32,000 nt of DNA from Methylorubrum extorquens (lineage in GTDB: Bacteria > Pseudomonadota > Alphaproteobacteria > Rhizobiales > Beijerinckiaceae), in assembly GCA_900234795.1 (NCBI GenBank), contig LT962688.1, positions 900,001-932,000 on the forward strand, read 5' to 3'. The position numbers were made by a program, and so were the translations under genes. Under the pieces are notes generated by a model. It did not search any database, was not told the origin of the DNA, and was given only the letters and a program-made list of their open reading frames with translations. Below are positions 743 to 27,854 of the stretch, in pieces (position 1 is the stretch's first letter; every line of letters starts with the position of its first letter).

Positions 743-1018
743 ATGAGCGAGCACCCTTACTACGGCACGCCCGAGGAACTGCGCGACTTTGTGCACGAGT
801 GCCTGCACATGACCGCCTTCTATTCCGGCATGGCGGTCAGCTATGCTGAGGCCCATGACGACGCGGGCCTTGAGTATTCCACCCGGAAAGCCGCCACTGC
901 CTTAAAGTCAGGCGTGACCGTGCTCGGTATGCTCAAGCAGGCCAACGCCAAACTGCTGAAGGAGCGGCTGAGAGCACGCGCCGAACGCGAGGGCGCCGAC
1001 TTGGCGCTCGGGCTGTGA
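743..1018 (+). CDS. hypothetical small protein (91 aa) upstream of the primase
   Basis: ORF with a GGGAG Shine-Dalgarno about 8 nt upstream of the ATG. Its stop lies 12 nt before the primase ATG, so the two look like an operon. I recognise no family. Confidence 0.45.
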   Translation: MSEHPYYGTPEELRDFVHECLHMTAFYSGMAVSYAEAHDDAGLEYSTRKAATALKSGVTVLGMLKQANAKLLKERLRARAEREGADLALGL

Positions 1019-1029
1019 GGGAGGAAGGC

Positions 1030-4331: not shown

Positions 4332-4375
4332 GTCAGAACCCAATCAGCTTCACCGCGTGAACGGCTGCTTAGGGT

Positions 4376-4548
4376 CGAGGCTGTGTGAAAACGTCGAGGC
4401 CATAGAAGGATCTTCCCCTCGCACATCTGTGCAGCGCCGGCATGGCACCCCAACGGCAACTCGGCCGCCAACCATAATGCTCGCATGTCGGCAGCGCAGA
4501 AGATTGTTCTATAGTTTCGGCGCGCGCCTGAGTTTTCACACAGCCTCG
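4376..4548. repeat. MITE-like element bounded by a 17-bp perfect inverted repeat
   Basis: CGAGGCTGTGTGAAAAC 4376-4392 and GTTTTCACACAGCCTCG 4532-4548 enclose 139 bp with no credible ORF. Confidence 0.5.
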
Positions 4549-4743
4549 GTGGGTAGCAGACATTCACTCAAGATGCCGCAACTCGCTGCTCCTCCGCTGA
4601 CAGCAGACCTGTGCCGATCGAAATTCATGAGGCGACTTCTCGCCCGCCTTCTTCGAGGCAGCGTCCCGTTCGATCAAGTCTTTCTGACGTAATCTGGGTT
4701 AACTGTGCCGCTTGCGCCGATTGGCGTCGAAACAGGGGTGGCC

Positions 4744-5100
4744 ATGTCCTCTTCTGTCAAAGCAGGACTGCCCGGACCCGCAGTCCGGCCGGTGGGAACC
4801 GACAGCCCCACCGCGAACGGGAAGCCGCTCCCTGTTGCTCTGAGCCGTCCTGGGGTTGGTCCGGCGGTTTACGCCACCCTTATCGAACTCGGCGCAGATC
4901 CGGACGGCCTCCTTGCTGAGTTGGGGTTTAATCCCAGGCTCTTCGACGGCGGCAAGCTAGTCCCCTATGCCGCCCTCGGCCGCCTGATCACCCTCGAGGC
5001 CGAGCGGACGAATTGCCCTCACCTTGGGCTCCTCGTCGGCCAGCGCGCCACCCTGGCGTCGCTGGGGCCGATCAGCGTGTTGATGCGCCACTCGGACTAA
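4744..5100 (+). pseudogene. AraC-family transcriptional regulator, N-terminal fragment truncated by IS insertion
   Basis: ..VYATLIELGADPDGLLAELGFNPRLFDGGKLVPYAALGRLITLEAERTNCPHLGLLVGQRATLASLGPISVLMRHS resembles the AraC-type ligand-binding region. The reading frame runs into the IS3-type terminal repeat at 5098 and stops at 5098-5100. No HTH domain follows. Confidence 0.6.
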
Positions 5101-5147
5101 CCTGACCGGTATTTTGGACCGAGCCGAGTGAGCGACTGTCTTGCTGG

Positions 5148-6077
5148 TCAAGCGGGTTGCCATGGCGTTCCGTCTCTCAGGATGGCGTTGAGGATGGTGA
5201 TCAGCTTCCGAGCGGTGGCAATCAGGGCAACGAGCTTGGGCTTACCGGCTGCGATGAGCCGGTCGCGGAAGGTTTTCAGCGCGGCATTGTGACGGCTGGC
5301 CACCATGGCCCCCATGAACAGCGCCGTGCGAACAGGTGCGCGGCCGCCTGCAATGAAGCTCCTCCCTCGCCACTGACCGGATTGCCGCGTCCAAGGGGCC
5401 AAGCCGACCAGCGCGGCGACTTGCTTCCGGTTGAGGCTTCCAAGCTCAGGCAGCTCCGCGATCAGGGTTCGTGCGATCGTCGGTCCAACACCAGGAACGG
5501 AGGTCAGGAGGGTCTCCTTCCTGCGCCATTCAAGCGACCGGTCTACCTCTGCATCGATCGAGCGGTCGATCACACTCTGCTCCTGCTCCAACGCCTCTAT
5601 GACGCGCCGGACGCTGTCTCGAATGCACGGTGGAGCTTGGCTCGCTCGCTGCCGCTCGGACGCGATCAGTCCTACGATCTGACGGCGTCTTGTGACGAGA
5701 TCAGCCAAGGCCTGAGTCTCGGCATCGGCCCGAGCGCGAACGGGTGGGTTGGTGGCCGCCGCGAACCGGGCGATCACGGTGGCGTCGATGCGGTCGGTCT
5801 TGGCGCGTTGGCCCAAGGCGTGAGCGAAAGCACGGACCTGTGCTGGGTTCACGATCACGGCTGGTAGCCTCCAGGTGGTGAGAGCACGTGCCACCATGGC
5901 TTCCAAACCGCCGGTTGCCTCCAGGACGACGAGCTTCGGCTTCAGGGGCCGGAGGCGTTCGCACAGCTGCTCCACACCCTCTGTCGTACGGTCAACGGCG
6001 AAGTTCGCTCCAGAGGGATGAACGTGAATATCGAGGCGGTCTCGGGCGACATCGATCCCGACAACAGGAGCGTCCAT
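5148..6077 (-). CDS. IS110-family transposase (DEDD recombinase)
   Basis: MDAPVVGIDVARDRLDIHV.. is the DEDD_Tnp_IS110 N-terminus. ..LLTSVPGVGPTIARTLIAELPELG.. is the Transposase_20 motif. I prefer ATG 6077 (AAGGA Shine-Dalgarno) to the ORF-track start at 6251, whose extra 58 residues are low-complexity. Confidence 0.85.
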   Translation of the reverse strand: MDAPVVGIDVARDRLDIHVHPSGANFAVDRTTEGVEQLCERLRPLKPKLVVLEATGGLEAMVARALTTWRLPAVIVNPAQVRAFAHALGQRAKTDRIDATVIARFAAATNPPVRARADAETQALADLVTRRRQIVGLIASERQRASQAPPCIRDSVRRVIEALEQEQSVIDRSIDAEVDRSLEWRRKETLLTSVPGVGPTIARTLIAELPELGSLNRKQVAALVGLAPWTRQSGQWRGRSFIAGGRAPVRTALFMGAMVASRHNAALKTFRDRLIAAGKPKLVALIATARKLITILNAILRDGTPWQPA

Positions 6078-6257
6078 CTGATCCCATCCTTGCGCAAGCG
6101 GGCTTCGCGTTGAGCGGCCCAAGCGACTGTTCGGGTTCGATGGAACGGCGGGCGAGGACCCTGGCTCACTTGCGGGCTTGGTGGCCCCAGAGGCTAACGG
6201 TCTCTCACCCGCCACCGCGCCGAAGAGCATACCCGGCGAAGGTGGGATCAAGTTACA
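6078..6257 (-). ncRNA. candidate bridge RNA in the IS110 left end
   Basis: About 180 nt, non-coding, 5' of the recombinase, as in IS621-type elements. It contains three segments matching the element junctions (6189-6196, 6165-6170, 6122-6130; see finding). Confidence 0.4.
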
Positions 6258-6572: not shown

Positions 6573-6638
6573 GTCCGACTCCTTCAGTCCTGGCTGATCC
6601 TCTCAATCAGCCCGGTCCAAAGCCAGCCGGTCAGGTCA

Positions 6639-7086
6639 GTGCTCGACGCCTTCAGCCGCCGGATCGTCGGCTGGGTCATGGCCAGCCACCTGCGCTCGGA
6701 GTTGGTGCTCGACGCTCTGGAGATAGCCGTCACCCAGCGCAGGCCGCGCGACGTCATCCACCACTCCGACCAGAGCTCGCAATACACGTCGCTGGCCTTC
6801 GGCAACCGGTGCCGAGAGGCCGGTGTCCGGCCCTCGACGGGCTCGGTCGGCGATGCCTACGACAACGCCATGGCCGAGAGCTTCTTCTCCACCCCCGAAT
6901 GCGATCTGCTCGTGCGTCGCCGCTTCCGCTCGCAGGCGGAGGCACGGATGGCCTGCTTCAGCTACATCGAAGGCTTCTACAACCCGCCGCGCCGCCACGG
7001 CGCTCGGTTACCGCTCGCCCGTCATTTACGAGCAGGAGACTGCCTCAGAGGCGTCAACAATGAAACTGCTCAGCCAAGTCCCCTGA
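6639..7086 (+). pseudogene. second IS3-family OrfB (rve integrase core) fragment, 5'-truncated and frameshifted
   Basis: VLDAFSRRIVGWVMASHLRSELVLDALEIAVTQRRPRDVIHHSDQSSQYTSLAFGNRCREAGVRPSTGSVGDAYDNAMAESFF.. is the rve core. The C-terminus ..ALGYRSPVIYEQE.. lies in another frame. A probable element end, ..CCGGGGTCAGGCGA, is at 7142-7155. The fragment starts exactly where the first IS3 remnant ends (6638/6639). Confidence 0.65.
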
Positions 7087-11503: not shown

Positions 11504-11685
11504 CGAGCGGTGTTTCAGCGAGGCTCCCGCTTCGTCAGCGTGCACGACCTCAGCGGCAGGCGCATGCTAGTGCAGCCGTACGTGGCTGAGCTGGAGCAAG
11601 CAGCGTGATCTTGGTCGCCGCGGTGGGTGGTGGGCTGTGCGTCCGCTTCGTGCATCGAAGTTGAGGACTGCTTCCGACCGATTTC

Positions 11686-11926
11686 GTTCTCTAATGAGTC
11701 AATGGGCGGCAGCTCAATCCAGAGCGTTCGACGCTTTCGGGTGCCTGCGTTCTCTACGTGCTCGTGCGGCACTTGATGGGGTCAGCTGGGTGCAAAGCGG
11801 CTCGGTTGAAAGCGCAGTCGGCGCAAGGCCGCATGCTACAGAATCGGCGCCATCTTCTGCTCCCTCCCTCGGGCGTCGCTCCCGCTCGGGAGCTCGGTTC
11901 GGCCTCCTGTCCGGTGATGTCAGCCG
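11686..11926 (-). ncRNA. candidate bridge/seek RNA in the IS1111-type right end, copy L
   Basis: Mirror copy of 15607-15847, differing at one base (11864). Confidence 0.4.
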
Positions 11927-12940
11927 CTACGCAGGTCGGAACTCGGTGCCCTGCCGCAGCATCGCGTGCATGATGATCGCTAGCCGGCGCGCGAGAGCGA
12001 TGCGGGCCTTGCGCATCGTAGAGCGCTTCGCGATGGCCAGAGCCCAAGCCTTCAGCTTCAGGGGCTGCCTGCAGCGCGTCAGCATCACGTTGGCGGCTTC
12101 GTACAGCAGCGTTCTGACCCGCCGGTCGCCGCACTTCGAGATGCTACCGGTGTAGTCGACCTCGCCCGATTGGTAGCGTCGCGGAACAAGGCCAAGATAC
12201 GGACCGACGTCGCGGGAGCGCCTGAAGCGCTCAGGATCATCGACGGCTGCCGTGAAAGCGAGCGCGGTGAGTTGACCGACGCCCGGGATCGTCATCAACC
12301 GCCGGCAGGCATCTGAGGCTCGGACCATCCGCTTGATATCTGCATCGATGGCGGCGACAGCTGCCAGCACGGCAGCTCGTGCTCCGATCAGGCCGCGCAT
12401 GGCGGCGGACAGTCCAGCGATCCCCTCGCTCGAACGCAGAGCCTGCTCGATGAACGCAGGGCTGAGCGCCCGCGGTAGCCGCACCCCGAACACGACGGCA
12501 AGACCGCGGATCTGGTTCTCCAGCGTGACCCGCTGGCCGACCAGCTTCTTGCGCGCGATGATCAACGACCTCACGGCGTGTGCCGGCAGCGACTTCACGT
12601 GCACCGGCTTGAAGAAGCCTGTTCGTGCCAGATGAGCCAGACCGCGCGCATCGTTCCGGTCGGTCTTGTGCGTCGTAAGCGACTTCAAGGCTTGGTAAGC
12701 CTGCCGGCTCTCGACGCAGACGACCGGCACACCATGGTCGGCCAAGCCGTGGAACAGCATTGGAGCCATCCGGCCTGTCTCGAACACAACCCGACGGCAG
12801 GCAGGCGCCTTCGCGAGTTCCTGCGCGATGTCGGCAGGCGTAGAGGCCACCTTCGCCTGATGGGTAACTACTCCGTCGCGGTCGACCACGCAGACGTGCG
12901 TCTCCTCCATCGAGACATCTAGGCCAGCGAAATACTCCAT
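11927..12940 (-). CDS. IS110-family transposase (337 aa)
   Basis: MEYFAGLDVSMEETHVCVVDRDG.. is the DEDD N-terminal domain. ..LMTIPGVGQLTALAFTAAVDDPERF.. is the Transposase_20 motif. The Shine-Dalgarno is GGAAGAGGAGG. The protein is identical to the one encoded at 14593-15606. Confidence 0.92.
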   Translation of the reverse strand: MEYFAGLDVSMEETHVCVVDRDGVVTHQAKVASTPADIAQELAKAPACRRVVFETGRMAPMLFHGLADHGVPVVCVESRQAYQALKSLTTHKTDRNDARGLAHLARTGFFKPVHVKSLPAHAVRSLIIARKKLVGQRVTLENQIRGLAVVFGVRLPRALSPAFIEQALRSSEGIAGLSAAMRGLIGARAAVLAAVAAIDADIKRMVRASDACRRLMTIPGVGQLTALAFTAAVDDPERFRRSRDVGPYLGLVPRRYQSGEVDYTGSISKCGDRRVRTLLYEAANVMLTRCRQPLKLKAWALAIAKRSTMRKARIALARRLAIIMHAMLRQGTEFRPA

Positions 12941-13093
12941 AATCAGCCTCCTCTTCCGGCAGCGGAGCCGATCCTATCGACTTCCGCAGAAGAGCTGCCG
13001 CCCATTACCCGATGTTGAAAAACTCGGTGGCGGCCGAGATCGGCGACGGACAGGGGCGATCTCTTCCCTTCGGCCCTGAGGCCTCCTTCCCGA

Positions 13094-14467
13094 TCAAGCC
13101 GGGCTCGGCTGCGGGACCGGGATGATCTTGGCCATCTTCCTCAGGTTCTGAGCGGCTGCGGCGAGGTGGAACTCGTCTCTCGCTCCGTTTGGGCCGCGCA
13201 ACCGGAGGCGATCCAGCTTCAGGATGCGCTTGAGGTGGGCAAACAGCATCTCGATCTTCTTCCGCTCACGGCGTGAGGTTTTGCCTTCCTCAGATCGTGC
13301 GATGTCGCGGGCCATGTCTCGCGCGCCCTCGTGGACTGAGCGCGGGACTTTGCGCACCGGATCGTTCGGGCAGCACCGCGCCTTCAGCGGGCATGGCGTG
13401 CAGTCGAACTTGCTCGCGCGATACATCAGCGTCGCCCCGTCGTTGATCAAGGTGCCGGTGGTCGTCAGCATCCGGCCTGCCGGGCAGCGATAGACGTCAT
13501 TGGGCTGGTCGTAGGTGAAGTCGGCGCGTGAGAAGGTACCATCGGTGCGGGTCGATTTATCGAAGACGCTGATATGTGGCTCGATGCCCTGCTCGTAGAC
13601 GAGCCAGCCCAACATCTCGGCCGAGCCGTAGCCGCTGTCGCCCGCCAGCCGGGCCGGATAGAGATCGAAGCGCTCGCGTGAGCGCTCGATCATGCGTTTG
13701 GCTGCCGTGACCTCGGCCTGCCGGATGGCGGTGGTCGCCTCGACATCGACGATGACCGCGTGGTCGAGGTCGATCAGGTAGTTGGCCGTGTAGGCGAAGA
13801 ACGCTTGCCCGCCGTGTGCTCCGGTCCAGCGTGCGGCCGGATCCGCGGGCGAGATGAACTTGGGTGGGACGGGCGTGGCGGCCCCGAAGGCGGCCTCGTC
13901 GAGGACGGCCAGATACTCTTGAGCAGCCCGGCTCACGGCCTCGGGTGGGAGGCCGGCAGAGCCTTCGACCCCGTTCTGTCGGTTGGCGTCGGCCTTGATC
14001 AGGCTGCCATCGACGGCAAAGCCCTCACCACCGACCAGCCCTTCGGCGATGCAGCGGGCGAGCACACGCTCGAACAAGCGGCGTAGCAGATCGCTGTCGC
14101 GGAAACGGCCGTGACGGTTCTTCGAGAAGGTCGAGTGGTCCGGTACGCGCCCCTCCAGGCCCAGGCGGCAGAACCAACGGTAGGCGAGATTGAGGTGGAC
14201 CTCGTCGCAGAGCCGGCGCTCCGAGCGGATGCCGAGGCAGTAGCCGATGATCAGCATACGGATCATCAGCTCGGGATCGACCGAGGGGCGCCCCGTGGAG
14301 GCGTAGAACGGGGCCAACTCCTGGCGCAGGCCGGTGAGATCGACGAAGCGGTCGATAGAGCGCAGTAGATGGTCGGCGGGAACGTGGGTGCCGAGCGAGA
14401 ACTCGTAGAACAGAGCACCCTGCTCGACTTGCCGAGGTCCCATCATCTGCGTCGATCCCTGCCTCAC
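13094..14467 (-). CDS. IS1182-family (IS5/IS4-like DDE) transposase
   Basis: N-terminal InsH/DUF772-like region: ..GRPSVDPELMIRMLIIGYCLGIRSERRLCDEVHLNLAYRWFC... C-terminal tail: ..MLFAHLKRILKLDRLRLRGPNGARDEFHLAAAAQNLRKMAK. An alternative start is MMGPRQ at 14446. Confidence 0.85.
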   Translation of the reverse strand: MRQGSTQMMGPRQVEQGALFYEFSLGTHVPADHLLRSIDRFVDLTGLRQELAPFYASTGRPSVDPELMIRMLIIGYCLGIRSERRLCDEVHLNLAYRWFCRLGLEGRVPDHSTFSKNRHGRFRDSDLLRRLFERVLARCIAEGLVGGEGFAVDGSLIKADANRQNGVEGSAGLPPEAVSRAAQEYLAVLDEAAFGAATPVPPKFISPADPAARWTGAHGGQAFFAYTANYLIDLDHAVIVDVEATTAIRQAEVTAAKRMIERSRERFDLYPARLAGDSGYGSAEMLGWLVYEQGIEPHISVFDKSTRTDGTFSRADFTYDQPNDVYRCPAGRMLTTTGTLINDGATLMYRASKFDCTPCPLKARCCPNDPVRKVPRSVHEGARDMARDIARSEEGKTSRRERKKIEMLFAHLKRILKLDRLRLRGPNGARDEFHLAAAAQNLRKMAKIIPVPQPSPA

Positions 14468-14592
14468 AGCAGCAGTGAATCACCTCGCAAATGCTGCTGC
14501 AACAGCCGAGTTTTTCAACATCGGGTAATGGGCGGCAGCTCTTCTGCGGAAGTCGATAGGATCGGCTCCGCTGCCGGAAGAGGAGGCTGATT

Positions 14593-15606
14593 ATGGAGTA
14601 TTTCGCTGGCCTAGATGTCTCGATGGAGGAGACGCACGTCTGCGTGGTCGACCGCGACGGAGTAGTTACCCATCAGGCGAAGGTGGCCTCTACGCCTGCC
14701 GACATCGCGCAGGAACTCGCGAAGGCGCCTGCCTGCCGTCGGGTTGTGTTCGAGACAGGCCGGATGGCTCCAATGCTGTTCCACGGCTTGGCCGACCATG
14801 GTGTGCCGGTCGTCTGCGTCGAGAGCCGGCAGGCTTACCAAGCCTTGAAGTCGCTTACGACGCACAAGACCGACCGGAACGATGCGCGCGGTCTGGCTCA
14901 TCTGGCACGAACAGGCTTCTTCAAGCCGGTGCACGTGAAGTCGCTGCCGGCACACGCCGTGAGGTCGTTGATCATCGCGCGCAAGAAGCTGGTCGGCCAG
15001 CGGGTCACGCTGGAGAACCAGATCCGCGGTCTTGCCGTCGTGTTCGGGGTGCGGCTACCGCGGGCGCTCAGCCCTGCGTTCATCGAGCAGGCTCTGCGTT
15101 CGAGCGAGGGGATCGCTGGACTGTCCGCCGCCATGCGCGGCCTGATCGGAGCACGAGCTGCCGTGCTGGCAGCTGTCGCCGCCATCGATGCAGATATCAA
15201 GCGGATGGTCCGAGCCTCAGATGCCTGCCGGCGGTTGATGACGATCCCGGGCGTCGGTCAACTCACCGCGCTCGCTTTCACGGCAGCCGTCGATGATCCT
15301 GAGCGCTTCAGGCGCTCCCGCGACGTCGGTCCGTATCTTGGCCTTGTTCCGCGACGCTACCAATCGGGCGAGGTCGACTACACCGGTAGCATCTCGAAGT
15401 GCGGCGACCGGCGGGTCAGAACGCTGCTGTACGAAGCCGCCAACGTGATGCTGACGCGCTGCAGGCAGCCCCTGAAGCTGAAGGCTTGGGCTCTGGCCAT
15501 CGCGAAGCGCTCTACGATGCGCAAGGCCCGCATCGCTCTCGCGCGCCGGCTAGCGATCATCATGCACGCGATGCTGCGGCAGGGCACCGAGTTCCGACCT
15601 GCGTAG
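14593..15606 (+). CDS. IS110-family transposase (337 aa)
   Basis: Protein identical to the one encoded at 11927-12940. Confidence 0.92.
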   Translation: MEYFAGLDVSMEETHVCVVDRDGVVTHQAKVASTPADIAQELAKAPACRRVVFETGRMAPMLFHGLADHGVPVVCVESRQAYQALKSLTTHKTDRNDARGLAHLARTGFFKPVHVKSLPAHAVRSLIIARKKLVGQRVTLENQIRGLAVVFGVRLPRALSPAFIEQALRSSEGIAGLSAAMRGLIGARAAVLAAVAAIDADIKRMVRASDACRRLMTIPGVGQLTALAFTAAVDDPERFRRSRDVGPYLGLVPRRYQSGEVDYTGSISKCGDRRVRTLLYEAANVMLTRCRQPLKLKAWALAIAKRSTMRKARIALARRLAIIMHAMLRQGTEFRPA

Positions 15607-15847
15607 CGGCTGACATCACCGGACAGGAGGCCGAACCGAGCTCCCGAGCGGGAGCGACGCCCGAGGGAAGGAGCAGAAGATGGCGCCGATTCTGTAGCAT
15701 GCGGCCTTGCGCCGACTGCGCTTTCAACCGAGCCGCTTTGCACCCAGCTGACCCCATCAAGTGCCGCACGAGCACGTAGAGAACGCAGGCACCCGAAAGC
15801 GTCGAACGCTCTGGATTGAGCTGCCGCCCATTGACTCATTAGAGAAC
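15607..15847 (+). ncRNA. candidate bridge/seek RNA in the IS1111-type right end, copy R
   Basis: A 241-nt non-coding region 3' of the recombinase. It contains a GCTCCC-GAGC-GGGAGC hairpin near 15641-15656. Segments 15687-15695, 15722-15728, 15777-15784 and 15791-15796 match the element junctions (see finding). Confidence 0.45.
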
Positions 15848-16263
15848 AGAATCGACCCTTAGCAGACCCTGGCGAGGTCCGCTTTCGGGCTGTTGATGAG
15901 CCAGAGACCTGTCGCTGGAACGGGTGGCTTTGAGCCCGTCTGCGGTTGTGTGCGGCATAGGTCAACCAACCCAGATAAATATCAATATACTTATGCATGT
16001 TACTTTCTAGTATTGGCCCAATAAGAATGATGTCCGCGTTAGGCCAGTATTCATTGCCTGAAAAATATGCAATTTGGCAAGAAACAATCAGCCTCAGACG
16101 AAGTTGAGGCTTTAGGATGCATGCCTCTGCCTATTTGACGCACCCTTGTGGAAGCGTGAAGCATCCTAGATGCAAGCTTAGCCTTCAAGGTCGCGGAGTA
16201 TCTAAGAAAAGTAGATTCTAAGCTTGCTGATTGACCTCCGCACTTAGCTGGTGGGAGAAATCG

Positions 16264-17439
16264 ATGCGCGCTTTAGTCTGGCACGGGAAAGAAGACATCC
16301 GCTGCGATACCGTCACCGATCCAGAGATCGAAGACGGGCGCGACGTCATTGTCAAAGTCACAAGCTGCGCGATCTGCGGCTCGGACCTGCACCTGTTTCA
16401 CAACTTGATCCCCGCCATGCTCCCCGGCGACGTCATGGGTCACGAGACCATGGGCGAAATCGTCGAGACCGGGCGCGGGCTTAACGGCAAGCTGAAGAAG
16501 GGCGACCGGGTCGTCGTACCCTTCACCATCGTCTGCGGTGAGTGCGACCAGTGCAAGCGCGGCTACTTCTCCGTCTGTCAGAAAAGCAACCGCAAGAAAT
16601 ACCTCGCTGATAAGGTCTTCGGACACGGCACCGCCGGTCTGTTCGGGTACTCGCATCTCACCGGCGGCTACCCCGGCGGTCAGGCCGAGTACCTGCGCGT
16701 GCCGTTTGCCGATGCGACCGCCCAGAAGGTGCCTGACGGCATTCCCGACGAAAAGCTGCTCTTCCTCTCGGACATCTTCCCGACCGGTTGGCAGGCGGCT
16801 GTCCAGGCCGACATCCAGCCCACCGATACCGTCGCGATCTGGGGGTGCGGACCGGTCGGCCAGATGACGATCCGCTCGGCCGTCCTCCTGGGTGCCGAAC
16901 AGGTCGTTGCCATCGACCACCTGCCGGAACGGCTGGAGATGGCCGAGGCAGGGGGCGCCATCACCATCAACTTCGACGAAGAGAGCGTCGTCGAGCGCCT
17001 GAACGAGCTGACCGGTGGCGAAGGTCCCGAGAAGTGCATCGACTGCATCGGCATGGAAAGCCATGTCAGCCCCACCATGCCCGATACGATCTACGACCGG
17101 GCCAAGCAGATCTTCCTGGCGGAGAGCGACCGTCCGCACGTGCTGCGTGAGATGATCTATGTCTGCCGGCCTGGCGGCCTGATCTCGATCCCAGGAGTCT
17201 ATGGCGGTTTGTCCGACAAGATCCCGATGGGTGCGGCGATGAACAAGGGCCTGACCTTCCGCATGGGGCAGACCCACGTCCAGCGCTGGACCGCCGATCT
17301 TCTTCGCCGGATTGAGGAGGACCAGATCGACCCCTCCTTCGTCATCACCCACGAGGCCCCGCTCGACATGGGCCCCGAGATGTACCGGACGTTCCGGGAC
17401 AAGCAGGACAGCTGCATCAAGGTCGTTCTCAAACCCTGA
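16264..17439 (+). CDS. zinc-dependent alcohol dehydrogenase family protein (glutathione-independent formaldehyde dehydrogenase-like)
   Basis: MRALVWHGKEDIRCDTV..CAICGSDLH..GHETMGEIVE..CGECDQCKRG..GGQAEYLRVPFAD..WGCGPVG.. The Shine-Dalgarno is GGGAGA. ATG 16264 is preferred to the TTG at 16231. Confidence 0.88.
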   Translation: MRALVWHGKEDIRCDTVTDPEIEDGRDVIVKVTSCAICGSDLHLFHNLIPAMLPGDVMGHETMGEIVETGRGLNGKLKKGDRVVVPFTIVCGECDQCKRGYFSVCQKSNRKKYLADKVFGHGTAGLFGYSHLTGGYPGGQAEYLRVPFADATAQKVPDGIPDEKLLFLSDIFPTGWQAAVQADIQPTDTVAIWGCGPVGQMTIRSAVLLGAEQVVAIDHLPERLEMAEAGGAITINFDEESVVERLNELTGGEGPEKCIDCIGMESHVSPTMPDTIYDRAKQIFLAESDRPHVLREMIYVCRPGGLISIPGVYGGLSDKIPMGAAMNKGLTFRMGQTHVQRWTADLLRRIEEDQIDPSFVITHEAPLDMGPEMYRTFRDKQDSCIKVVLKP

Positions 17440-18152: not shown

Positions 18153-18887
18153 ATGGCGAATCAAGACGACGGGCTCCTCGCGAGGGATCGCGGCGATCAT
18201 CCGACACGCACGCGAGCAACGGGATCCGCGCGGTCTTGGCCGGAGCGCCGACAGGAACCCTCCGACAGCCGTCCTAGTGCTGGCATGGTCGGGCTCGCCC
18301 TCGCGGCCGCTGCAGGCGTTGCCGCCATCGGTCTGATCGGCGCTCAATTGGGCACGACCGGGAGCCGGGCCAGGATGGGTCCGAACGGACGGCCCGCTGC
18401 GGGGCATGACCCTGAAGTCGAGCGCTCGATAACGATTGAGGGTGTTTCTGCGGACGAACTCTACCGTCGCTGGCGCGATCCAGAGACCTTGCGGCGGATT
18501 ATGGCGCCCATTGCAGATGTCCAGCCCATGGGTGACGGGCAGACACGCTGGAGCTCCGGACATGATCTCGGCACCTGGGACATGCGTCTGGCCGACGACC
18601 GGCCTGGCGAGTTCATGCGTTGGGTCGCACAGGGCGACGGCGCTCTGATCCGGGAAGCGTCGGTGCGTTTCCGCCCCGCTACCGGCAAGCGTGGGACGGT
18701 GGTGACCCTGCGCGCCAGCTTCGACCCTCCCGGTGGCATGCTCGGCCGGATCGCCACCCAGATGCTGAACAACACGCTTCCGGCGTCCCTAGCGAGCAAA
18801 TCCCTCCATTACTTCAAAGCCCTCGTCCAGACCGGCGAGATCCCGACCACCGAGCGTCAGCCCGCGGCTCGGTCCGACCCTCGCTGA
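18153..18887 (+). CDS. SRPBCC (cyclase/dehydrase, START-like) family protein with an N-terminal membrane anchor
   Basis: TM segment MVGLALAAAAGVAAIGLIGA, then ..ERSITIEGVSADELYRRWRDPETLRRIM..VRFRPATGKRGTVVTLRASFDPPGG.., typical of polyketide_cyc2/SRPBCC proteins. The start was chosen at MANQDD. Confidence 0.65.
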   Translation: MANQDDGLLARDRGDHPTRTRATGSARSWPERRQEPSDSRPSAGMVGLALAAAAGVAAIGLIGAQLGTTGSRARMGPNGRPAAGHDPEVERSITIEGVSADELYRRWRDPETLRRIMAPIADVQPMGDGQTRWSSGHDLGTWDMRLADDRPGEFMRWVAQGDGALIREASVRFRPATGKRGTVVTLRASFDPPGGMLGRIATQMLNNTLPASLASKSLHYFKALVQTGEIPTTERQPAARSDPR

Positions 18888-18901
18888 CAAGGAGGCTACT
18901 C

Positions 18902-20071
18902 ATGCGCGCGCTCTACTGGAACGGCGTCAACGACCTGCGGGTCGGCACGGTGAAAGATCCCGAGATCGTCAACCCGCATGACTGCGTCCTGCGAGTCAGC
19001 CTGTCGACCACCTGCGGCTCGGACCTGCACTTCATCGATGGCTACATCCCGACCATGAAGGCCGGCGACGTGATTGGTCATGAGTTCATGGGCGTGATCG
19101 AGGATGTCGGCCCCGAGGTGAAGCGTGTGAAGAAGGGCGACCGTGTTGTGGTGCCGTCCTTCATCACCTGCGGCCAGTGCTGGTACTGCAAGAACAAACT
19201 TCATTCGCTGTGCGACAACACCCATCCCAAACCAGAGCTGCAGGAGCCCGTCTTCGGATATCCGACCGCCGGCATCTACGGCTATACTCACGCGTTCGGC
19301 GGCTATGCCGGAGCGCACGCCCAGTATGTGCGCGTGCCGTTCGCCGACAACGACTGCTTCAAGGTGCCCGAGGGGGTAGCGGACGAAACGGCGCTGTTTC
19401 TCTCGGACGCGGCGCCGACGGGCTACATGGGGGCGGACTTCTGCAACATCCAGCCCGGCGACGTGGTGGCCGTGTGGGGCTGCGGCGGCGTGGGGCTGAT
19501 GGCGCAGCAGAGCGCGCGGTTGATGGGCGCCGAGCGGGTGATCGCGATCGACCGATACCCTGAGCGGTTGCAGATGGCGCGCGAGCACGCCGGCTCTGAG
19601 ACGATCGACTACACGCAGGTCGACAGCGTCTTGGAGGTGCTCAAGCAAATGACGGGCGGTCGTGGCCCAGACGCCTGCATCGACGCGGTCGGCATGGAGG
19701 CGCACGGAACTGGCTCACAATACGCCTATGATCGCGTGAAGCAGGCGCTACGTCTTGAGACGGACCGCGGCCAGGCGCTGCGCGAGGCCATCATGGCCTG
19801 CCGCAAGGGCGGCACGCTGTCGGTGCTTGGCGTCTACGGGCTGATCGACAAGTTCCCGATGGGCGCCATCATGAACAAGGGCATGACGGTGCGCAGCGCC
19901 CAGCAGCACGGACAAGCCTACATGGATCGGCTACTTACGCACGCTCAGAAGGGCGAGTTGAACCCGGCCTATCTCGCCACGCACCGCTTCTCTTTGGAGG
20001 ACGGGCCGCGCGGCTACGACATGTTCAAGCACAAGACGGACGGCTGCGTGCGCGCGGTGTTCGCGCCGTAG
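18902..20071 (+). CDS. zinc-dependent alcohol dehydrogenase family protein (paralog of 16264-17439)
   Basis: AAGGAGG Shine-Dalgarno. MRALYWNGVNDLRVGTV..CGSDLH..GHEFMGVIED..CGQCWYCKN..AHAQYVRVPFAD..WGCGGVG.. Confidence 0.88.
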   Translation: MRALYWNGVNDLRVGTVKDPEIVNPHDCVLRVSLSTTCGSDLHFIDGYIPTMKAGDVIGHEFMGVIEDVGPEVKRVKKGDRVVVPSFITCGQCWYCKNKLHSLCDNTHPKPELQEPVFGYPTAGIYGYTHAFGGYAGAHAQYVRVPFADNDCFKVPEGVADETALFLSDAAPTGYMGADFCNIQPGDVVAVWGCGGVGLMAQQSARLMGAERVIAIDRYPERLQMAREHAGSETIDYTQVDSVLEVLKQMTGGRGPDACIDAVGMEAHGTGSQYAYDRVKQALRLETDRGQALREAIMACRKGGTLSVLGVYGLIDKFPMGAIMNKGMTVRSAQQHGQAYMDRLLTHAQKGELNPAYLATHRFSLEDGPRGYDMFKHKTDGCVRAVFAP

Positions 20072-20293: not shown

Positions 20294-20869
20294 ATGGCTT
20301 CAGACAACCTCAATGGCCTGAAGGTCGCGATCCTCGTGACGGACGGCTTCGAGCAGGTCGAGATGACCGAGCCACGCAAGGCACTCGACGAGGCTGGCGC
20401 CGAGACCCAGATCGTCTCGCCCAAGGATAGCCAGGTGAAGGCCTGGAACTTCACGGAGTGGGGCGACACGTTCCCGGTCGACATGCCCTTAAGCAGTGCC
20501 CGGCCCGATAACTACGATGCGCTGCTGCTGCCAGGCGGCGTCATCAATCCGGACACGCTCCGGGCGCTGCCCGAGGCGATCGCGTTCGCAAAAGCTTTCT
20601 TCGATGCCGGCAAGCCCGTGGCATCGATCTGCCACGGGCCGTGGACCATCATCGAGGCGGGCGCCGCACGCGGACGGCGCCTGACCTCCTGGCCATCACT
20701 CCAAACCGATCTCAAGAACGCCGGGGCGGAGTGGGTGGATCAGGAGGCCGTCGTCGATCAGGGTCTCGTCACGAGCCGCAAGCCCGACGACATCCCGGCG
20801 TTCAACTCGGAAGTGATCAAGCTATTCGCGAGCGCACGCGGGCTATCGCGCCAGGCAGGCGCCGAATGA
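20294..20869 (+). CDS. DJ-1/PfpI family protein (type 1 glutamine amidotransferase-like; general stress protein / glyoxalase III-like)
   Basis: ..KVAILVTDGFEQVEMTEP..LLLPGGVINPD..GKPVASICHGPW.. (nucleophile elbow) ..TSWPS..VVDQGLVTSRKPDDIPAF.. Confidence 0.88.
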   Translation: MASDNLNGLKVAILVTDGFEQVEMTEPRKALDEAGAETQIVSPKDSQVKAWNFTEWGDTFPVDMPLSSARPDNYDALLLPGGVINPDTLRALPEAIAFAKAFFDAGKPVASICHGPWTIIEAGAARGRRLTSWPSLQTDLKNAGAEWVDQEAVVDQGLVTSRKPDDIPAFNSEVIKLFASARGLSRQAGAE

Positions 20870-20928
20870 GACCCACAGCCGGAGCCGGCGCTGCGCAGCA
20901 CACGCCTTCTCCATCGGGACCGTACTGC

Positions 20929-21768
20929 ATGGAGCGGCGCCCGTTCGGTTTGCTGCCGCGCGAAGTTGCGGTGATCGGCCAGGGGACCTGGTACATCGAC
21001 GACGCTCACCGGCCCATCGCGGTCGCTGCCCTGCGCCGCGGCCTCGATCTCGGCATGACCCACCTCGACACCGCCGAGATGTACGGCGACGCAGAGATCG
21101 TGGTCGGCGAGGCGATCACCGGGCGACGAGACGAGGTTTTCCTCGTCTCCAAGGTCCTCCCCAGCAATGCCTCGCGGGTTGGGACCGTGGCAGCCTGCGA
21201 GCGCTCGCTCGCGCGCCTGCGCACCGACAGGCTGGACTGTTACCTCCTGCACTGGCCGGGGCCGCATCCGCTCGAGGATACTTTCGCGGCCCTAGAGCGG
21301 CTTCGCGAACAGGGAAAGATCCTGTCCTGGGGGGTGAGCAACTTCGACGTGCCCGACCTCGAGGCCGCGTGGAAGGCCGGCGGCGAGGGCCGGATCGCCT
21401 GCAACCAAGTCCTCTATCATCTGCAGGAGCGCGCCATCGAGCACGCCGTGCAGCCCTGGTGCGAGACGCACGGCGTTGCCGTGGTCGCCTACAGCCCCTT
21501 CGGCCACGGCGGCTTCCCCGGCCCGCGCACGCCGGGCGGGCGTGTGTTGGAGGAGATCGCGGCCGACCACGGCGCGACCGCGCGCCAGGTCGCCCTGCGG
21601 TTCCTAGTGCGGCGGCTGTCCACCTTCGCGATCCCCAAGGCGTCTAGCCCCGAGCACGCCACCGACAACGCGGGCGCTGGCACGCTGTCGCTGACGGACG
21701 CCGACCTCGCCCGTCTCGACGCTGCGTTCCCGCTCGGCCCGCGACCGCGTCGGCTCCCCATGCTGTAG
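20929..21768 (+). CDS. aldo/keto reductase
   Basis: MERRPFGLLPREVAVIGQGTW..THLDTAEMYG..EVFLVSKV..DCYLLHWP..WGVSNF..NQVLYHL..AYSPFG... An alternative in-frame ATG at 20866 overlaps the upstream stop (ATGA). Confidence 0.85.
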   Translation: MERRPFGLLPREVAVIGQGTWYIDDAHRPIAVAALRRGLDLGMTHLDTAEMYGDAEIVVGEAITGRRDEVFLVSKVLPSNASRVGTVAACERSLARLRTDRLDCYLLHWPGPHPLEDTFAALERLREQGKILSWGVSNFDVPDLEAAWKAGGEGRIACNQVLYHLQERAIEHAVQPWCETHGVAVVAYSPFGHGGFPGPRTPGGRVLEEIAADHGATARQVALRFLVRRLSTFAIPKASSPEHATDNAGAGTLSLTDADLARLDAAFPLGPRPRRLPML

Positions 21769-22518: not shown

Positions 22519-23617
22519 TCAAAAGAGAGTGGCGAGTGCTTCGCGGGTGAAATCCCTTAGATGCTCGTGCCGTCCCCTCGCGGATCTTGCTGACCCAATG
22601 CGGATCGGACAGCACGGCCCGGCCGACAGCAACGAGGTCGAAGTCGCCGCGCGTGAGACGGCGAATGAGTTCGTCGAGCGGATCGGGACGCGAGCTCTCG
22701 CCTTGGAAGGCGGCAATGAACTCGCCCGAGAGTCCGACCGAGCCGACGGTGATCGTTGGCTTGCCCGTCAGCCTCTTCGCCCAACCCGCGAAATTCAGGT
22801 CCGAGCCTTCGAACTCTGGCTGCCAGAACCGCCGCTGCGAGCAGTGGAAGATGTCGACTCCCGCCTCGGCGAATGGGGTGAGCCAAGCCGCCATCTCGTC
22901 GGGTGTCCGTGCGAGTTTCACCGCGAAGTCCTGCTGCTTCCACTGCGAAAGGCGCAGGATCACGGCAAAATCCTCCCCCCACCGCGGAACGAACCGCCCG
23001 CACGACCTCGACGGCGAAGCGGCTGCGCTCGGGCAAGGTCACGCCGCCGTAGCGGTCCTGACGCTGGTTCACGCCGGCCCAGAAGAACTGATCGATGAGG
23101 TAACCGTGCGCGCCGTGAATCTCAACCGCATCGAAGCCGAGCCGATTGGCTTGCGCCGCGGCACGGCCGAACGCCGCGACGATCTCGGCGACGTCGGTCT
23201 CCGACATCGCGACGCCGCCGGCCTCCCCGGGGACGACGAGCCCGGAGGGCCTTCCATGGGAGCGGGCGGCTTCCATCCGGACGCATGCGGGGCCACAATT
23301 CCCATATGCCAGATCTGCGGCGCCATCGCGCCTCCGGCGGCATGAACCGCGTCGATGACGCGTTTCCATCCTGCGAGCGCCCGTTCGCCATGGAAATGAG
23401 GAACCGCTGGATCGTTCGACGCCGCCGGCCGGTCGATGACGGTGCCTTGCGAGATGATGAGCCCCATTTCGGGTGCGCGTCGGCCGTAATAGGCGGCGAC
23501 TTCCGGTGTCGGAACGCCGGTGGGAGAGAACGAGCGCGTCATCGGCGCCATGACGATCCGATTCTGCAGCCGGAGCGACTTGTGCTCGAAGGGGCTGAAC
23601 AAGATGTCGAGGCTCAT
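22519..23617 (-). pseudogene. NADH:flavin oxidoreductase (Old Yellow Enzyme family), at least 3 frameshifts
   Basis: The homologous sequence is spread over four frames. These are MSLDILFSPFEHKSLRLQNRIVMAPMTR..APQIWHMG; then ..ETDVAEIVAAFGRAAAQANRLGFDAVEIHGAHGYLIDQFFW..RQDRYGG; then ..ILRLSQW..VDIFHCSQRRFW..DLVAVGRAVLSDPHWVSKIREG; then ..HLRDFTREALATLF*. Confidence 0.7.
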
Positions 23618-27339: not shown

Positions 27340-27854
27340 CGCCGACACCCCCCGCCGGTTGCCTCGACCGGCCCGCGACCCCGCACCGTCCAAAGCGCGG
27401 CGCCCAACTCGTGAGACGCGGCTTGTCGGTCGGGTCCGATCACCCCGTGCCGCCTGAGGGCGGCCACCTGCACATGAGTCGCGTTCCGTGCCTTGTTGAA
27501 CGCATGCAGGCCATTCGCACACATGCGGCACCTCCGTGGCTCCGTGTCGGAGTCAGATGGCGTCGCCACGCCGCTGCGACACTCGGACAATCCCTAGGGA
27601 AGTGCCGAACAGGCAAGCAGCTCAAATTGTCGGCTCAGGAAGCGCCCAGGTTGAGGAAGGTAGCGCCAAACTCATCTTCTAGAAAAAACCGGAGCGCCCG
27701 CAGGGCACGACATGGCTGCTTCTCAGAATTCATTCACTCCCGACGGCCTTGCCGAAAATGCCACGGAGAACACCCTAGGCATTGACCGAATATCTCAGGG
27801 CCAGCAGCCTGTGCTCCTCTGACTTAGCAACCGATGTCATGTCAGGAGAGCGCG

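What the first reader, a model, noticed from the sequence alone, without database searches (positions are those of the whole stretch)
15607..15854. Candidate programmable bridge/seek RNA in the 3' non-coding end of the IS1111-type element, with guides matching its own target and donor junctions
The 241 nt after the transposase stop have no credible ORF. I found four junction matches by hand. (a) CGATTCTGT 15687-15695 is the exact reverse complement of ACAGAATCG 15846-15854, the last 2 nt of the IS plus the first 7 nt of the right flank. (b) TTTCAAC 15722-15728 is identical to 14513-14519 in the left flank. (c) TAGAGAAC 15777-15784 is identical to the last 8 nt of the element (15840-15847). (d) ACCCGA 15791-15796 is complementary to TCGGGT 14522-14527, just inside the predicted left end. 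Matches (a), (b) and (c) all carry the same dinucleotide, AC, on the junction-proximal side, as expected of a shared core. The published logic of IS110-family bridge RNAs (IS621) and seekRNAs (IS1111-type, encoded 3' of the recombinase) uses one sense segment for the left half-site and one antisense segment for the right half-site, for both target and donor. Segments (a) and (b) are 26 nt apart, and that spacer contains a GCGC-CGACT-GCGC hairpin, consistent with an internal guide loop capped by a stem. At the left copy the right-flank match is 7/9 (ACGAAATCG), so the two IR targets differ slightly. My rough chance expectation for an exact 8-9-mer hit to one specified junction in 241 nt is about 0.01 or less each, but I have run no proper controls.
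Basis: partly seen in the sequence, partly recalled or inferred. Interest (0 to 1): 0.8.

Follow-up and report, generated by a model that had tools for sequence, protein, structure and literature searches.

The report
Bridge (seek) RNA of ISMdi14-like element
The non-coding tail of this insertion sequence very probably encodes the guide ("bridge" or "seek") RNA that IS1111-type elements are already known to use to choose their insertion site; here the site is the terminal repeat of another insertion sequence, so this is a well-supported but expected example.

Summary
Window 14520-15847 is an IS1111-type element whose transposase is 94% identical to ISMdi14. ISMdi14 is already listed with a right-end bridge RNA in the Durrant et al. 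2024 supplement. A second copy lies inverted at 11686-13013. Each copy sits in one terminal inverted repeat of an IS1182-family element.

Matches a, b and c are exact and beat shuffles (p about 0.0008, 0.02, 0.006). Match d is at chance level (p 0.29).

Fifty-six relatives share a conserved fold: 94% of cells paired, and 15 pairs with compensatory changes.
- Segments a (pairs with the right target half) and b (matches the left target half) are the two strands of an internal loop capped by a stem-loop. They lie in the order published for IS1111 seekRNAs.
- Segment a covaries with the right flank: 0 of 20,000 permutations reach the observed match.
- Segment c tracks the element's right end through four sequence variants.
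- Segment d lies in a structural helix. A better candidate for the guide that pairs with the element's left end is ACCCCAT, 15751-15757.

No expression data exist. Verdict: real, working like a known kind of RNA, and already essentially known.

The parts
14520..15847 (+). Right copy of an ISMdi14-like IS1111-type insertion sequence, 1328 bp. The ends are ambiguous by the shared core AC (or AAC).
   Evidence: The two window copies are identical from ATCGGG... to ...TTAGAGAAC and diverge in the flanks. The ends are conserved in 56 relatives. The transposase is 94% identical to ISMdi14.
14593..15606 (+). Transposase/recombinase gene, 337 aa, DEDD (RuvC-like) domain plus Transposase_20 domain.
   Evidence: Pfam PF01548 and PF02371. 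NCBIfam NF033542 'IS110 family RNA-guided transposase', 253.7 bits against a cut-off of 140. The GLVPRRYQSG motif is visible.
14527..14541 (+). Left subterminal inverted repeat, AATGGGCGGCAGCTC, 7 nt inside the left end.
   Evidence: A perfect 15-bp inverted repeat with 15818-15832.
15818..15832 (+). Right subterminal inverted repeat, GAGCTGCCGCCCATT, followed by a 15-nt terminal extension that contains an almost invariant TTGAC (absent only in L029).
15640..15655 (+). 5' hairpin, GCTCC/GGAGC.
   Evidence: RNAalifold and pair counts: 96.9% of cells paired, and one pair with 6 double changes.
15656..15803 (+). Core of the predicted bridge/seek RNA, 148 nt. It is closed by helix 15656-15660/15799-15803 and by GGG 15665-15667 / CCC 15792-15794. 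The arm 15669-15745 (77 nt) carries the target-binding loop.
   Evidence: Consensus structure over 45 distinct relatives: 94.1% of cells paired against at most 42% when partners are slid; 15 pairs with compensatory changes; 0 of 500 shuffles reach the observed values. The covariance model finds exactly the two copies in the window.
15687..15695 (+). It is complementary to the top strand ACAGAATCG (core AC plus right flank) and forms the 5' strand of the target-binding internal loop.
   Evidence: Exact 9-mer, shuffle p 0.0008. Covaries with the right flank at positions 2, 3, 6 and 7 in 48 unique insertions, with 0 of 20,000 permutations reaching the observed match.
15697..15719 (+). Stem-loop that caps the target-binding loop: 15697-15699/15717-15719 and 15702-15705/15711-15714.
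   Evidence: Conserved helices 6 and 7. Loop length varies among relatives.
15722..15728 (+). It is identical to the top strand of the left flank plus core, so it is complementary to the bottom strand. It forms the 3' strand of the target-binding loop.
   Evidence: Exact 7-mer, shuffle p 0.02. Five of its seven positions are invariant and the other two are 96-98% conserved in 45 relatives, whose left flanks nearly all end in TTTTCAAC. L047 carries TTTGCAAC in both guide and flank. The sister subfamily has different guides that match its own flanks.
15751..15757 (+). Candidate right donor guide, ACCCCAT. It is unpaired, lies in the multi-branch loop 5' of the small hairpin, and is complementary to left ends of the form ATGGGGT. 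It matches 6 of 7 against this element's ATCGGGT.
   Evidence: Invariant or nearly so (98-100%) in 45 relatives although unpaired. TTACCCCAT / ATGGGGTAA is an exact 9-mer in L008, L030, L031, L050 and L052. One supporting change is seen: L065 has left end ATGACGT and RNA ACTCAT. Tentative.
15761..15775 (+). Small hairpin, GTGC/GCAC, between the two donor-side segments.
   Evidence: 98.3% of cells paired; one pair has 9 double changes.
15777..15784 (+). It is identical to the last 8 nt of the element. The conserved part is AGAGAAC, 15778-15784.
   Evidence: Exact 8-mer, shuffle p 0.006. AGAGAAC is invariant although unpaired. It tracks the right end in four variants: AGAGAAC, AGACAAC, AGACGAC and AGATGAC.
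15791..15796 (+). It is not a guide. Its CCC (15792-15794) forms a conserved helix with GGG 15665-15667.
   Evidence: Shuffle p 0.29. The helix at columns 38-40/189-191 is 95.6% paired. The segment changes without any matching change in the left end, for example TCCCTA in L013-L015, which keep ATCGGGT.
14513..14519 (+). Left target half-site, TTTCAAC, including core AC. It is the inner part of the IS1182 terminal inverted repeat.
15848..15854 (+). Right target half-site, AGAATCG. It is the outer part of the IS1182 terminal inverted repeat, which runs to about 15868.
11686..13013 (-). Left copy of the same element, transposase gene 11927-12940. Its predicted RNA core is 11730-11877 on the minus strand. 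Its right flank GAAATCG matches the guide at 5 of 7 positions.
   Evidence: Covariance-model hit at 11719-11903 (-), 194.9 bits.
11665..15868 (-). Host IS1182-family element, about 1548 bp without the two insertions, transposase gene 13094-14467 (-). Both of its terminal inverted repeats are occupied.
   Evidence: Inverted-repeat arms 11665-13027 / 14506-15868. NCBIfam NF033551, IS1182 family transposase, 426.9 bits against a cut-off of 270.

Best explanation
Window 15640-15803 (+), and its twin at about 11730-11893 (-), encodes the bridge RNA (seekRNA) of an ISMdi14-like IS1111-type insertion sequence.

Inferred mechanism, by analogy with ISEc11, ISPa11, ISKpn4 and IS621:
1. The RNA is made as the 3' part of the transposase transcript. 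In the published systems that transcript starts at a promoter created when the element ends are joined in the circular form. The RNA then binds the DEDD/serine recombinase.
2. It folds into a 5' hairpin, a closing helix and a long arm. [quoted passage not shown] The two pairings overlap at the core AC.
3. [quoted passage not shown] 4. The RNA thereby holds the circle junction ...TTAGAGAAC/ATCGGGT... against the target TTTTTCAAC/AGAATCG, and the recombinase exchanges strands at AC.

The programmed target is a fixed position in the terminal inverted repeat of IS1182-family elements. This explains why both repeats of the host element are occupied, each copy in the same orientation relative to its repeat.

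Shown here: the sequence matches, the conserved fold, covariation of guide with flank, and covariation of guide with the right end. Inferred: transcription, protein binding, and the chemistry.
For: Family features:
- Pfam and NCBIfam assignments.
- 15-bp subterminal inverted repeats.
- Non-coding region of 241 nt downstream of the gene against 73 nt upstream.
- GL-P----SG motif (compared with the text read).

Matches a-c exceed shuffles: 0.0008, 0.02 and 0.006, with no shuffle reaching the sum.

Conserved fold in 45 distinct relatives:
- 94.1% of cells paired, against at most 42% for slid controls.
- 15 pairs with double changes, 78 such cells, and 0 of 500 shuffles as high.

The guide segments are unpaired yet nearly invariant wherever their DNA partner is invariant. 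They vary only in a, whose partner varies.

Segment a against the right flank, 48 unique insertions:
- 5.48 of 7 matches for cognate pairs against 4.87 for permuted pairs; 0 of 20,000 permutations reach this.
- At position 7, a guide G goes with a flank G in 32 of 33 cases, and a guide C with a flank C in 9 of 15.
- Within one genome (contigs CAWCCX01: L011, L013-15, L030, L031, L050), position 7 agrees in 7 of 7.

Left side: L047 has TTTGCAAC in both guide and flank.

Sister subfamily (44-47% amino-acid identity):
- It has the same layout but different guides. Cognate longest matches are 7.0 and 7.1 nt, against 4.0 and 4.2 for non-cognate pairs.
- L063: RNA GCCGAGGCTGT against junction ACAGCCTCGGC (11 nt).
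- L071: 12 of 13 positions match.

The right-end guide follows the right end in four variants.

The order (top-strand-complementary segment 5' of the bottom-strand-complementary one, overlapping at the insertion point) matches the IS1111 seekRNAs (PMC11187229). The sense rules match IS621 (PMC11208160). Donor bases in a multi-branch loop match the description for IS1111 orthologues.

Sizes fit the published RNAs. The 148-164 nt whole compares with 'long seekRNA' of 145-170 nt. The 77-nt arm compares with 70-100 nt.

The nearest named element, ISMdi14 (94% identity), is listed as 'RE, IS1111' in supplementary file 8 of Durrant et al..
Against: - No expression or binding data exist.
- No sigma-70-like promoter or intrinsic terminator was found in or near the region.
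- Rfam 15 has no matching family.
- The single-sequence fold is no more stable than shuffles (z +1.48 and +1.15), and its minimum-free-energy structure differs from the consensus.
- G.U cells (44) do not clearly outnumber A.C cells (30), so the pair counts alone do not fix the strand.
- The right-donor guide is imperfect here, with a C.C mismatch at position 3 of the left end. ACCCCAT stays constant while that position varies (C, G, T, A) among relatives, so this guide rests on conservation, position and one supporting change.
- Many natural insertions carry mismatches at positions 1-3 next to the core, including the left copy in this window.
- Related sequences are not independent, so the permutation p-values are optimistic.
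Confidence: 0.86

Rival explanations
1. The RNA is a target-only seekRNA. Segments a and b guide target choice, but the element ends are recognised by the protein through the 15-bp subterminal inverted repeats. On this view the internal copies of AGAGAAC and ACCCCAT are conserved for RNA-protein contacts or structure, not for donor pairing.
For: - The 82-nt short seekRNA of ISEc11, which holds only the target matches, was sufficient for transposition, and the role of the long form was left open.
- Long subterminal inverted repeats are present.
- ACCCCAT does not follow variation at position 3 of the left end.
- AGAGAAC and the right end are both invariant within the close family, so no covariation can be seen there.
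Against: - Across subfamilies the internal segment changes together with the right end, in four variants with matches of 8-10 nt each.
- Durrant et al. report donor-complementary bases in a multi-branch loop in many IS1111 orthologues.
- Both segments are unpaired, yet invariant or nearly so (98-100%).
Confidence: 0.1
2. The matches are chance, or they are DNA-level repeats such as protein-binding sites within the right end, and no guide RNA is involved.
For: - Match d is at chance level.
- There is no thermodynamic signal and no Rfam hit.
- TAGAGAAC occurring twice in the right end could be a repeated binding site.
Against: - Shuffles reject chance for a-c.
- Segment a is antisense to sequence outside the element and covaries with it. 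A binding site inside the element cannot explain that.
- Compensatory changes occur in 15 base pairs.
- The sister subfamily shows retargeting.
- There is published experimental proof for the family (PMC11187229, PMC11208160).
Confidence: 0.03

Closest known systems
ISMdi14 / ISMdi14B (ISfinder; IS110 family, IS1111 group; Methylobacterium)
   Same: The transposase is 94% identical over all 337 aa. Supplementary file 8 of Durrant et al. 2024 lists ISMdi14 as IS1111 group with the bridge RNA in the right end. This is the same kind of element with the same RNA location.
   Different: It is not the identical sequence: 21 amino-acid differences. I found no description of ISMdi14's guides, fold or target in the held literature (no paper text mentions it).
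seekRNAs of ISEc11, ISPa11, ISKpn4 and ISPst6 (IS1111 family; Siddiquee et al. 2024, PMC11187229)
   Same: - The RNA is encoded downstream of the transposase gene.
- The top-strand-complementary segment lies 5' of the bottom-strand-complementary one, and they overlap at the insertion point.
- There are long and short forms of similar sizes.
- Natural retargeting is seen among relatives.
- Subterminal inverted repeats are present.
   Different: The target differs (an IS1182 terminal repeat rather than attC, REP or other sites). No experimental data exist here. That paper did not assign donor guides, whereas the comparative data here support one for the right end.
IS621 bridge RNA (IS110 group; Durrant et al. 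2024 PMC11208160; Hiraizumi et al. 2024 PMC11208158)
   Same: - The pairing logic is the same: left guides pair with the bottom strand and right guides with the top strand, and the core is included.
- The target-side guide pair sits as an internal loop capped by a stem-loop.
- The recombinase is of the DEDD plus serine type.
   Different: - In IS621 the RNA lies in the left end, upstream of the gene, with the left guide 5' of the right guide. Here it lies in the right end with the right guides 5'.
- Here the donor bases are in a multi-branch loop rather than a second internal loop.
- The core is AC here and CT in IS621.
- The subterminal inverted repeats are long here.
IS4321 / IS5075 (IS1111 family elements that insert into the 38-bp terminal repeats of Tn21-family transposons; Partridge and Hall 2003, cited)
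   Same: An IS1111-type element inserts at one fixed position and orientation in the terminal inverted repeat of another transposable element. Both repeats can be occupied.
   Different: The host here is an IS1182-family insertion sequence in Alphaproteobacteria, not a Tn3-family transposon. The target sequence differs.

Membership tests
IS1111 group of the IS110 family (the element) | DEDD (RuvC-like) N-terminal domain plus Transposase_20 C-terminal domain | tested here: met
   PF01548 (2.8e-20) and PF02371 (2.1e-25). NF033542 at 253.7 bits against a cut-off of 140.
IS1111 group of the IS110 family (the element) | Subterminal inverted repeats of about 7-17 bp, with terminal extensions | tested here: met
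   Perfect 15-bp repeat at 14527-14541 / 15818-15832, with extensions of 7 nt (left) and 15 nt (right). Definition taken.
IS1111 group of the IS110 family (the element) | The longer non-coding region lies downstream of the transposase gene | tested here: met
   241 nt downstream against 73 nt upstream.
IS1111 group of the IS110 family (the element) | C-terminal GL-P----S(T)G motif | tested here: met
   GLVPRRYQSG is seen in the alignment. The motif is as described.
IS1111 group of the IS110 family (the element) | Site- and orientation-specific insertion, with a short core shared by target and ends and no long target duplication | tested here: met
   AC (AAC) lies at both junctions. The junctions are of the same form in 56 relatives. 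An unoccupied site, TTTTTCAACAGAATCG, lies next to L029.
IS1111-type bridge RNA / seekRNA | A top-strand-complementary segment 5' of a bottom-strand-complementary segment, overlapping at the insertion point | tested here: met
   15687-15695 and 15722-15728 overlap at AC. The order is as in PMC11187229.
IS1111-type bridge RNA / seekRNA | Guides covary with the natural target among relatives (natural reprogramming) | tested here: met
   Permutation test with 0 of 20,000 reaching the observed value. L047 on the left side. Sister subfamily: cognate 7.0/7.1 nt against non-cognate 4.0/4.2 nt.
IS1111-type bridge RNA / seekRNA | Conserved secondary structure with compensatory changes, placing the guides in loops | tested here: met
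   94.1% of cells paired; 15 pairs with double changes; 0 of 500 shuffles as high. The guides are unpaired in the consensus.
IS1111-type bridge RNA / seekRNA | Donor-binding bases complementary to both element ends, in a multi-branch loop in many IS1111 orthologues | tested here: inconclusive
The right-end guide is met and covaries in four variants. The left-end guide candidate, ACCCCAT, matches 6 of 7 positions here, is nearly invariant, and has only one supporting change.
IS1111-type bridge RNA / seekRNA | The RNA is transcribed, processed and bound to the recombinase, and is required for transposition | not testable with these tools
   No expression data. No promoter or terminator consensus match.
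IS1111-type bridge RNA / seekRNA | Match to a curated covariance model of the family | tested here: inconclusive
   Rfam 15 gives no hit at the gathering or E-value threshold. I saw no sign that Rfam holds such a family. The models of Durrant et al. are not available here, but their table places the RNA of ISMdi14 in the right end.

The most novel reading that the evidence does not exclude
The ISMdi14-like clade is a dedicated 'parasite of a parasite'. Its bridge RNAs would be programmed across many Alphaproteobacteria for one position in the terminal inverted repeat of IS1182-family elements. Insertion splits that repeat and probably disables the host element.

Small guide changes at positions 2, 3, 6 and 7 would track repeat variants of different IS1182 lineages. 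The frequent mismatches at positions 1-3 next to the core would imply that recognition relies on a seed further from the core.

If so, this natural series of more than 50 guide-target pairs would be a ready-made specificity map for an IS1111-type recombinase.
Probability: 0.5. Interest if true: 0.45.

Novelty: already known. Interest (0 to 1): 0.27.

Why it matters
Bridge/seek RNAs are under active development as programmable tools for inserting DNA. This locus adds no new principle: its nearest named relative, ISMdi14, is already listed with a right-end bridge RNA.

What it does add is modest:
- A guide-level map for this clade.
- Evidence that its natural target is the terminal repeat of IS1182-family elements. 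This resembles IS4321/IS5075 in Tn21 ends.
- A natural series of guide and target variants, with tolerated mismatches next to the core, that could inform specificity rules for IS1111-type recombinases.

For genome annotation, it explains why an IS1182 copy is flanked by two inverted IS110-family copies.

Tried and rejected
- Rfam 15 at the gathering threshold on the whole window, and at the E-value threshold on 14400-16000, gave nothing relevant.
- Single-sequence folding of 15607-15847 and of 15656-15803 gave z-scores of +1.48 and +1.15, and the minimum-free-energy structure is not the conserved fold. This was uninformative.
- The scan for sigma-70 promoters and intrinsic terminators on 14400-15950 found none.
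- Counting G.U against A.C cells to fix the transcribed strand gave 44 against 30, which is not decisive.
- A megablast search of the plasmid collection, made to obtain an annotated name, gave only three Bosea plasmids at 78-81% identity, with no annotated feature under the match.
It is at chance level, lies in a conserved helix, and changes without a matching change in the left end.
It is not conserved; relatives support a different register.
- Handshake-type pairing after the right target guide (by analogy with IS621): by my own reading of the alignments, the next bases (AG, CG or TG) are not complementary to the donor bases before the core. I did not pursue this.
- A junction promoter across the joined ends would read TTGACT-N17-TAATGG or TTGACT-N15-GGTAAT. 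Only the -35-like TTGAC is convincing and almost invariant. This remains an inference.
- A hidden ORF in the non-coding region is rejected, because the length variation is not in multiples of three.
Full report
**What is in the window**

Window 14593-15606 (+) encodes a 337-aa protein with the two domains of IS110-family recombinases. These are Pfam PF01548 and PF02371. NCBIfam places it in 'IS110 family RNA-guided transposase', at 253.7 bits against a cut-off of 140.

A 99% identical copy lies inverted at 11927-12940 (-). The two copies are identical from ATCGGGTAAT... to ...CATTAGAGAAC and diverge outside those points. This sets the element at 14520-15847 (+) and 11686-13013 (-), 1328 bp each.

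The element has a perfect 15-bp subterminal inverted repeat (14527-14541 / 15818-15832). It has 7-nt and 15-nt terminal extensions. The upstream non-coding region is 73 nt and the downstream one is 241 nt. These are the defining features of the IS1111 group.

Between the two copies lies an IS1182-family transposase gene, 13094-14467 (-), scoring 426.9 bits against a cut-off of 270 for NF033551. The inverted-repeat arms extend beyond the element ends on both sides, to 11665 and 15868. So each copy has inserted into one terminal inverted repeat of that IS1182 element. Each has its left end facing the host's interior.

**Check of the observation**

Matches a, b and c are exact at the stated coordinates. 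Match d exists, but its partner TCGGGT lies at 14521-14526, one base off.

I tested each match against 5000 dinucleotide-preserving shuffles of the non-coding region:

| Match | Observed length | Fraction of shuffles reaching it |
|---|---|---|
| a | 9 | 0.0008 |
| b | 7 | 0.02 |
| c | 8 | 0.006 |
| d | 6 | 0.29 |

No shuffle reached the summed length. Queries in the wrong sense gave only 4-5 nt.

**Comparative evidence for a structured RNA**

A scan of one genome per species returned 80 loci encoding relatives at 97-44% amino-acid identity, almost all from Alphaproteobacteria.

The downstream non-coding region is alignable in 56 loci with at least 70% identity. RNAalifold on 45 distinct sequences predicts a fold. 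I refined it slightly and counted pairs, with these results:
- 94.1% of cells form standard pairs, against 30-42% when the partners are slid by 1-3 columns.
- 15 of 35 pairs show changes on both sides, in 78 cells.
- No shuffle out of 500 reaches any of the five measures.

The fold has these parts:
- A hairpin at 15640-15655.
- A closing helix, 15656-15660/15799-15803, plus GGG 15665-15667 / CCC 15792-15794.
- A long arm, 15669-15676/15738-15745 and 15681-15684/15732-15735. Single pairs in this arm show 8, 17 and 14 double changes.
- At the end of that arm, an internal loop capped by the stem-loop 15697-15719.
- In the multi-branch loop, a small hairpin at 15761-15775.

- Segment a (15687-15695) is the 5' strand of the internal loop.
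- Segment b (15722-15728) is its 3' strand.
- Segment c (15777-15784) is unpaired, just 3' of the small hairpin.
- Segment d lies in the GGG/CCC helix, so it is structural.

The unpaired segments TTTCAAC, AGAGAAC and ACCCCAT (15751-15757) are invariant or nearly so (96-100% per position) across the 45 sequences. Segment a varies at exactly the positions where right flanks vary.

**Do the guides follow their DNA partners?**

All 56 relatives share these features:
- The left flank ends in ...TTTTCAAC.
- The left end is AT(C/G/T/A)GGGTAAT.
- The right end is ...TTAGAGAAC.
- The right flank resembles ANNATCG.

For 48 unique insertions, the reverse complement of segment a matches its own right flank at 5.48 of 7 positions. 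With permuted pairings the figure is 4.87, and 0 of 20,000 permutations reach the observed value. The association is carried by positions 2, 3, 6 and 7. For example, a guide G at position 7 goes with a flank G in 32 of 33 cases, and a guide C with a flank C in 9 of 15.

Seven insertions from one metagenome-assembled genome agree at position 7 in 7 of 7 cases.

On the left side there is little variation to test. The one relative with an altered guide (L047, TTTGCAAC) sits next to TTTGCAAC.

A sister subfamily at 44-47% identity has the same layout and gives weak full-length hits to a covariance model built from the close family. Its guides differ, and they match its own different flanks. Examples are L063 (RNA GCCGAGGCTGT against junction ACAGCCTCGGC), L071 (12 of 13 positions) and L064 (TGTTGAAC on the left). 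Cognate longest matches average 7.0 and 7.1 nt, against 4.0 and 4.2 nt for non-cognate pairs.

The segment homologous to c follows the right end through four variants: AGAGAAC, AGACAAC, AGACGAC and AGATGAC. This is the evidence that c is a donor guide.

For the other donor guide, ACCCCAT is the best candidate:
- It occupies the mirror position of segment a, 5' of a capping hairpin.
- It forms exact 9-mers (TTACCCCAT / ATGGGGTAA) in five relatives.
- It changes to ACTCAT in L065, whose left end is ATGACGT.

Against it, ACCCCAT does not follow variation at position 3 of the left end, and it leaves a C.C mismatch in this window. IS621 also has flipped-out and non-canonical positions in its right-donor pairing, so I treat this guide as tentative rather than excluded.

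**How it most likely works**

The sense rules match IS621: left guides pair with the bottom strand, right guides pair with the top strand, and the core is included in the pairing.

The order, with the top-strand-complementary segment first, matches the IS1111 seekRNAs. The placement of donor bases in a multi-branch loop matches what Durrant et al. describe for many IS1111 orthologues.

The sizes also fit. The whole RNA is 148-164 nt and the target arm is 77 nt. The published long and short forms are 145-170 nt and 70-100 nt.

Transcription is inferred to come from the transposase transcript. In the published systems that transcript starts at a promoter formed at the circle junction. No promoter or terminator consensus is present in the non-coding region. 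The right-end extension carries an almost invariant TTGAC (absent only in L029) that could serve as the -35 element of such a junction promoter. This is an inference only.

**The target**

In at least 20 of the related loci an IS1182-like transposase gene lies directly on the left-end side, in either orientation. So the clade repeatedly uses both terminal repeats of IS1182-family elements.

An unoccupied site, TTTTTCAACAGAATCG, lies next to the insertion in L029.

The window itself has no other site within three mismatches of the target. A MITE-like element at 4357-4567 carries related but mismatched repeats and is unoccupied.

**Comparison with what is known, and novelty**

The transposase is 94% identical to ISMdi14 of ISfinder. 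Supplementary file 8 of Durrant et al. 2024 lists ISMdi14 as IS1111 group with the bridge RNA in the right end.

That paper predicted bridge RNAs in 93% of IS1111 elements. Siddiquee et al. demonstrated seekRNAs experimentally in four of them.

The finding is therefore an instance of a known system in a catalogued element family. I found no text describing ISMdi14's guides or target. The guide map and the IS1182-repeat target may therefore be new details, but they are incremental.

**Limits**

- There are no expression data.
- There is no thermodynamic signal from single sequences.
- The G.U against A.C count does not fix the strand.
- The sequences are related, so the permutation and shuffle figures overstate independence.
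- The covariance model matches the window copies by construction.

Noticed in passing
window 5148-6251 (-), with inverted-repeat arms 5096-5132 / 6602-6640: There is a third IS110-family recombinase gene, 367 aa with both Pfam domains, only 28% identical to the ISMdi14-like protein. Its long non-coding region (about 390 nt) lies upstream of the gene, which is the IS110-group layout, so a bridge RNA would be expected in its left end. The covariance model built here does not hit it.
   Followed up: partly
window 4357-4567: A 211-bp MITE-like element is bounded by 36-nt inverted repeats of the IS1182 type. The inner motif GTTTTCACACAGCCTCG is related to the occupied target TTTTTCAACAGAATCG but mismatches both guides, and it is unoccupied. 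It is exactly the site type used by the sister-subfamily element in L063, whose guides are CTTCACAC and GCCGAGGCTGT.
   Followed up: partly
window 15669 (right copy, A) against 11864 (left copy, equivalent G): The only difference between the two copies inside the element falls in the predicted RNA. The right copy has A where 41 of the 45 aligned sequences, and the left copy, have G. This breaks a conserved G-C pair (15669/15745), and the left copy scores 5 bits higher with the covariance model.
   Followed up: yes
window 11679-11685 (right flank of the left copy, GAAATCG in element orientation): The left copy sits at a site that mismatches the guide at the two positions next to the core (5 of 7). 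Many relatives show the same tolerance at positions 1-3, whereas positions 4-7 almost always match. This suggests recognition relies on a seed away from the core.
   Followed up: partly
L029, right flank, about 2760-2800: Two nucleotides beyond the right half-site of this insertion lies an inverted, unoccupied copy of the full target (CGATTCTGTTGAAAAAGTCGG). The target here is part of a palindromic pair of repeat ends, and only one of the two is occupied.
   Followed up: no
L018 and L019, about 2620-2650: These relatives carry a tandem duplication of the left-guide segment (ACTGCGATTTCA ACTGCGATTTCAACC) on the 3' side of the target-binding loop.
   Followed up: no
L036 and L042, downstream of the AGAGA motif: In these two loci the conserved RNA is interrupted right after AGAGA by unrelated sequence (TGGGATGGTTGCCGCCC...), and the normal right end is missing. 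They look like truncated or rearranged copies.
   Followed up: no
window 1015-2487 (+) and 2713-3603 (-): A D5_N/DUF5906 primase-helicase-like gene lies next to an RNase T-type exonuclease gene, close to the cluster of insertion sequences. This may be part of an integrated mobile element or a prophage remnant.
   Followed up: no
window 16231-17439, 18620-20071 and 27834-28514 (+): There are three zinc-type alcohol dehydrogenase-like ORFs (ADH_N, with or without ADH_zinc_N), plus an aldo/keto reductase (20641-21768) and a fragment of an Oxidored_FMN gene (22557-23369). The 226-aa and 270-aa ORFs look truncated.
   Followed up: no
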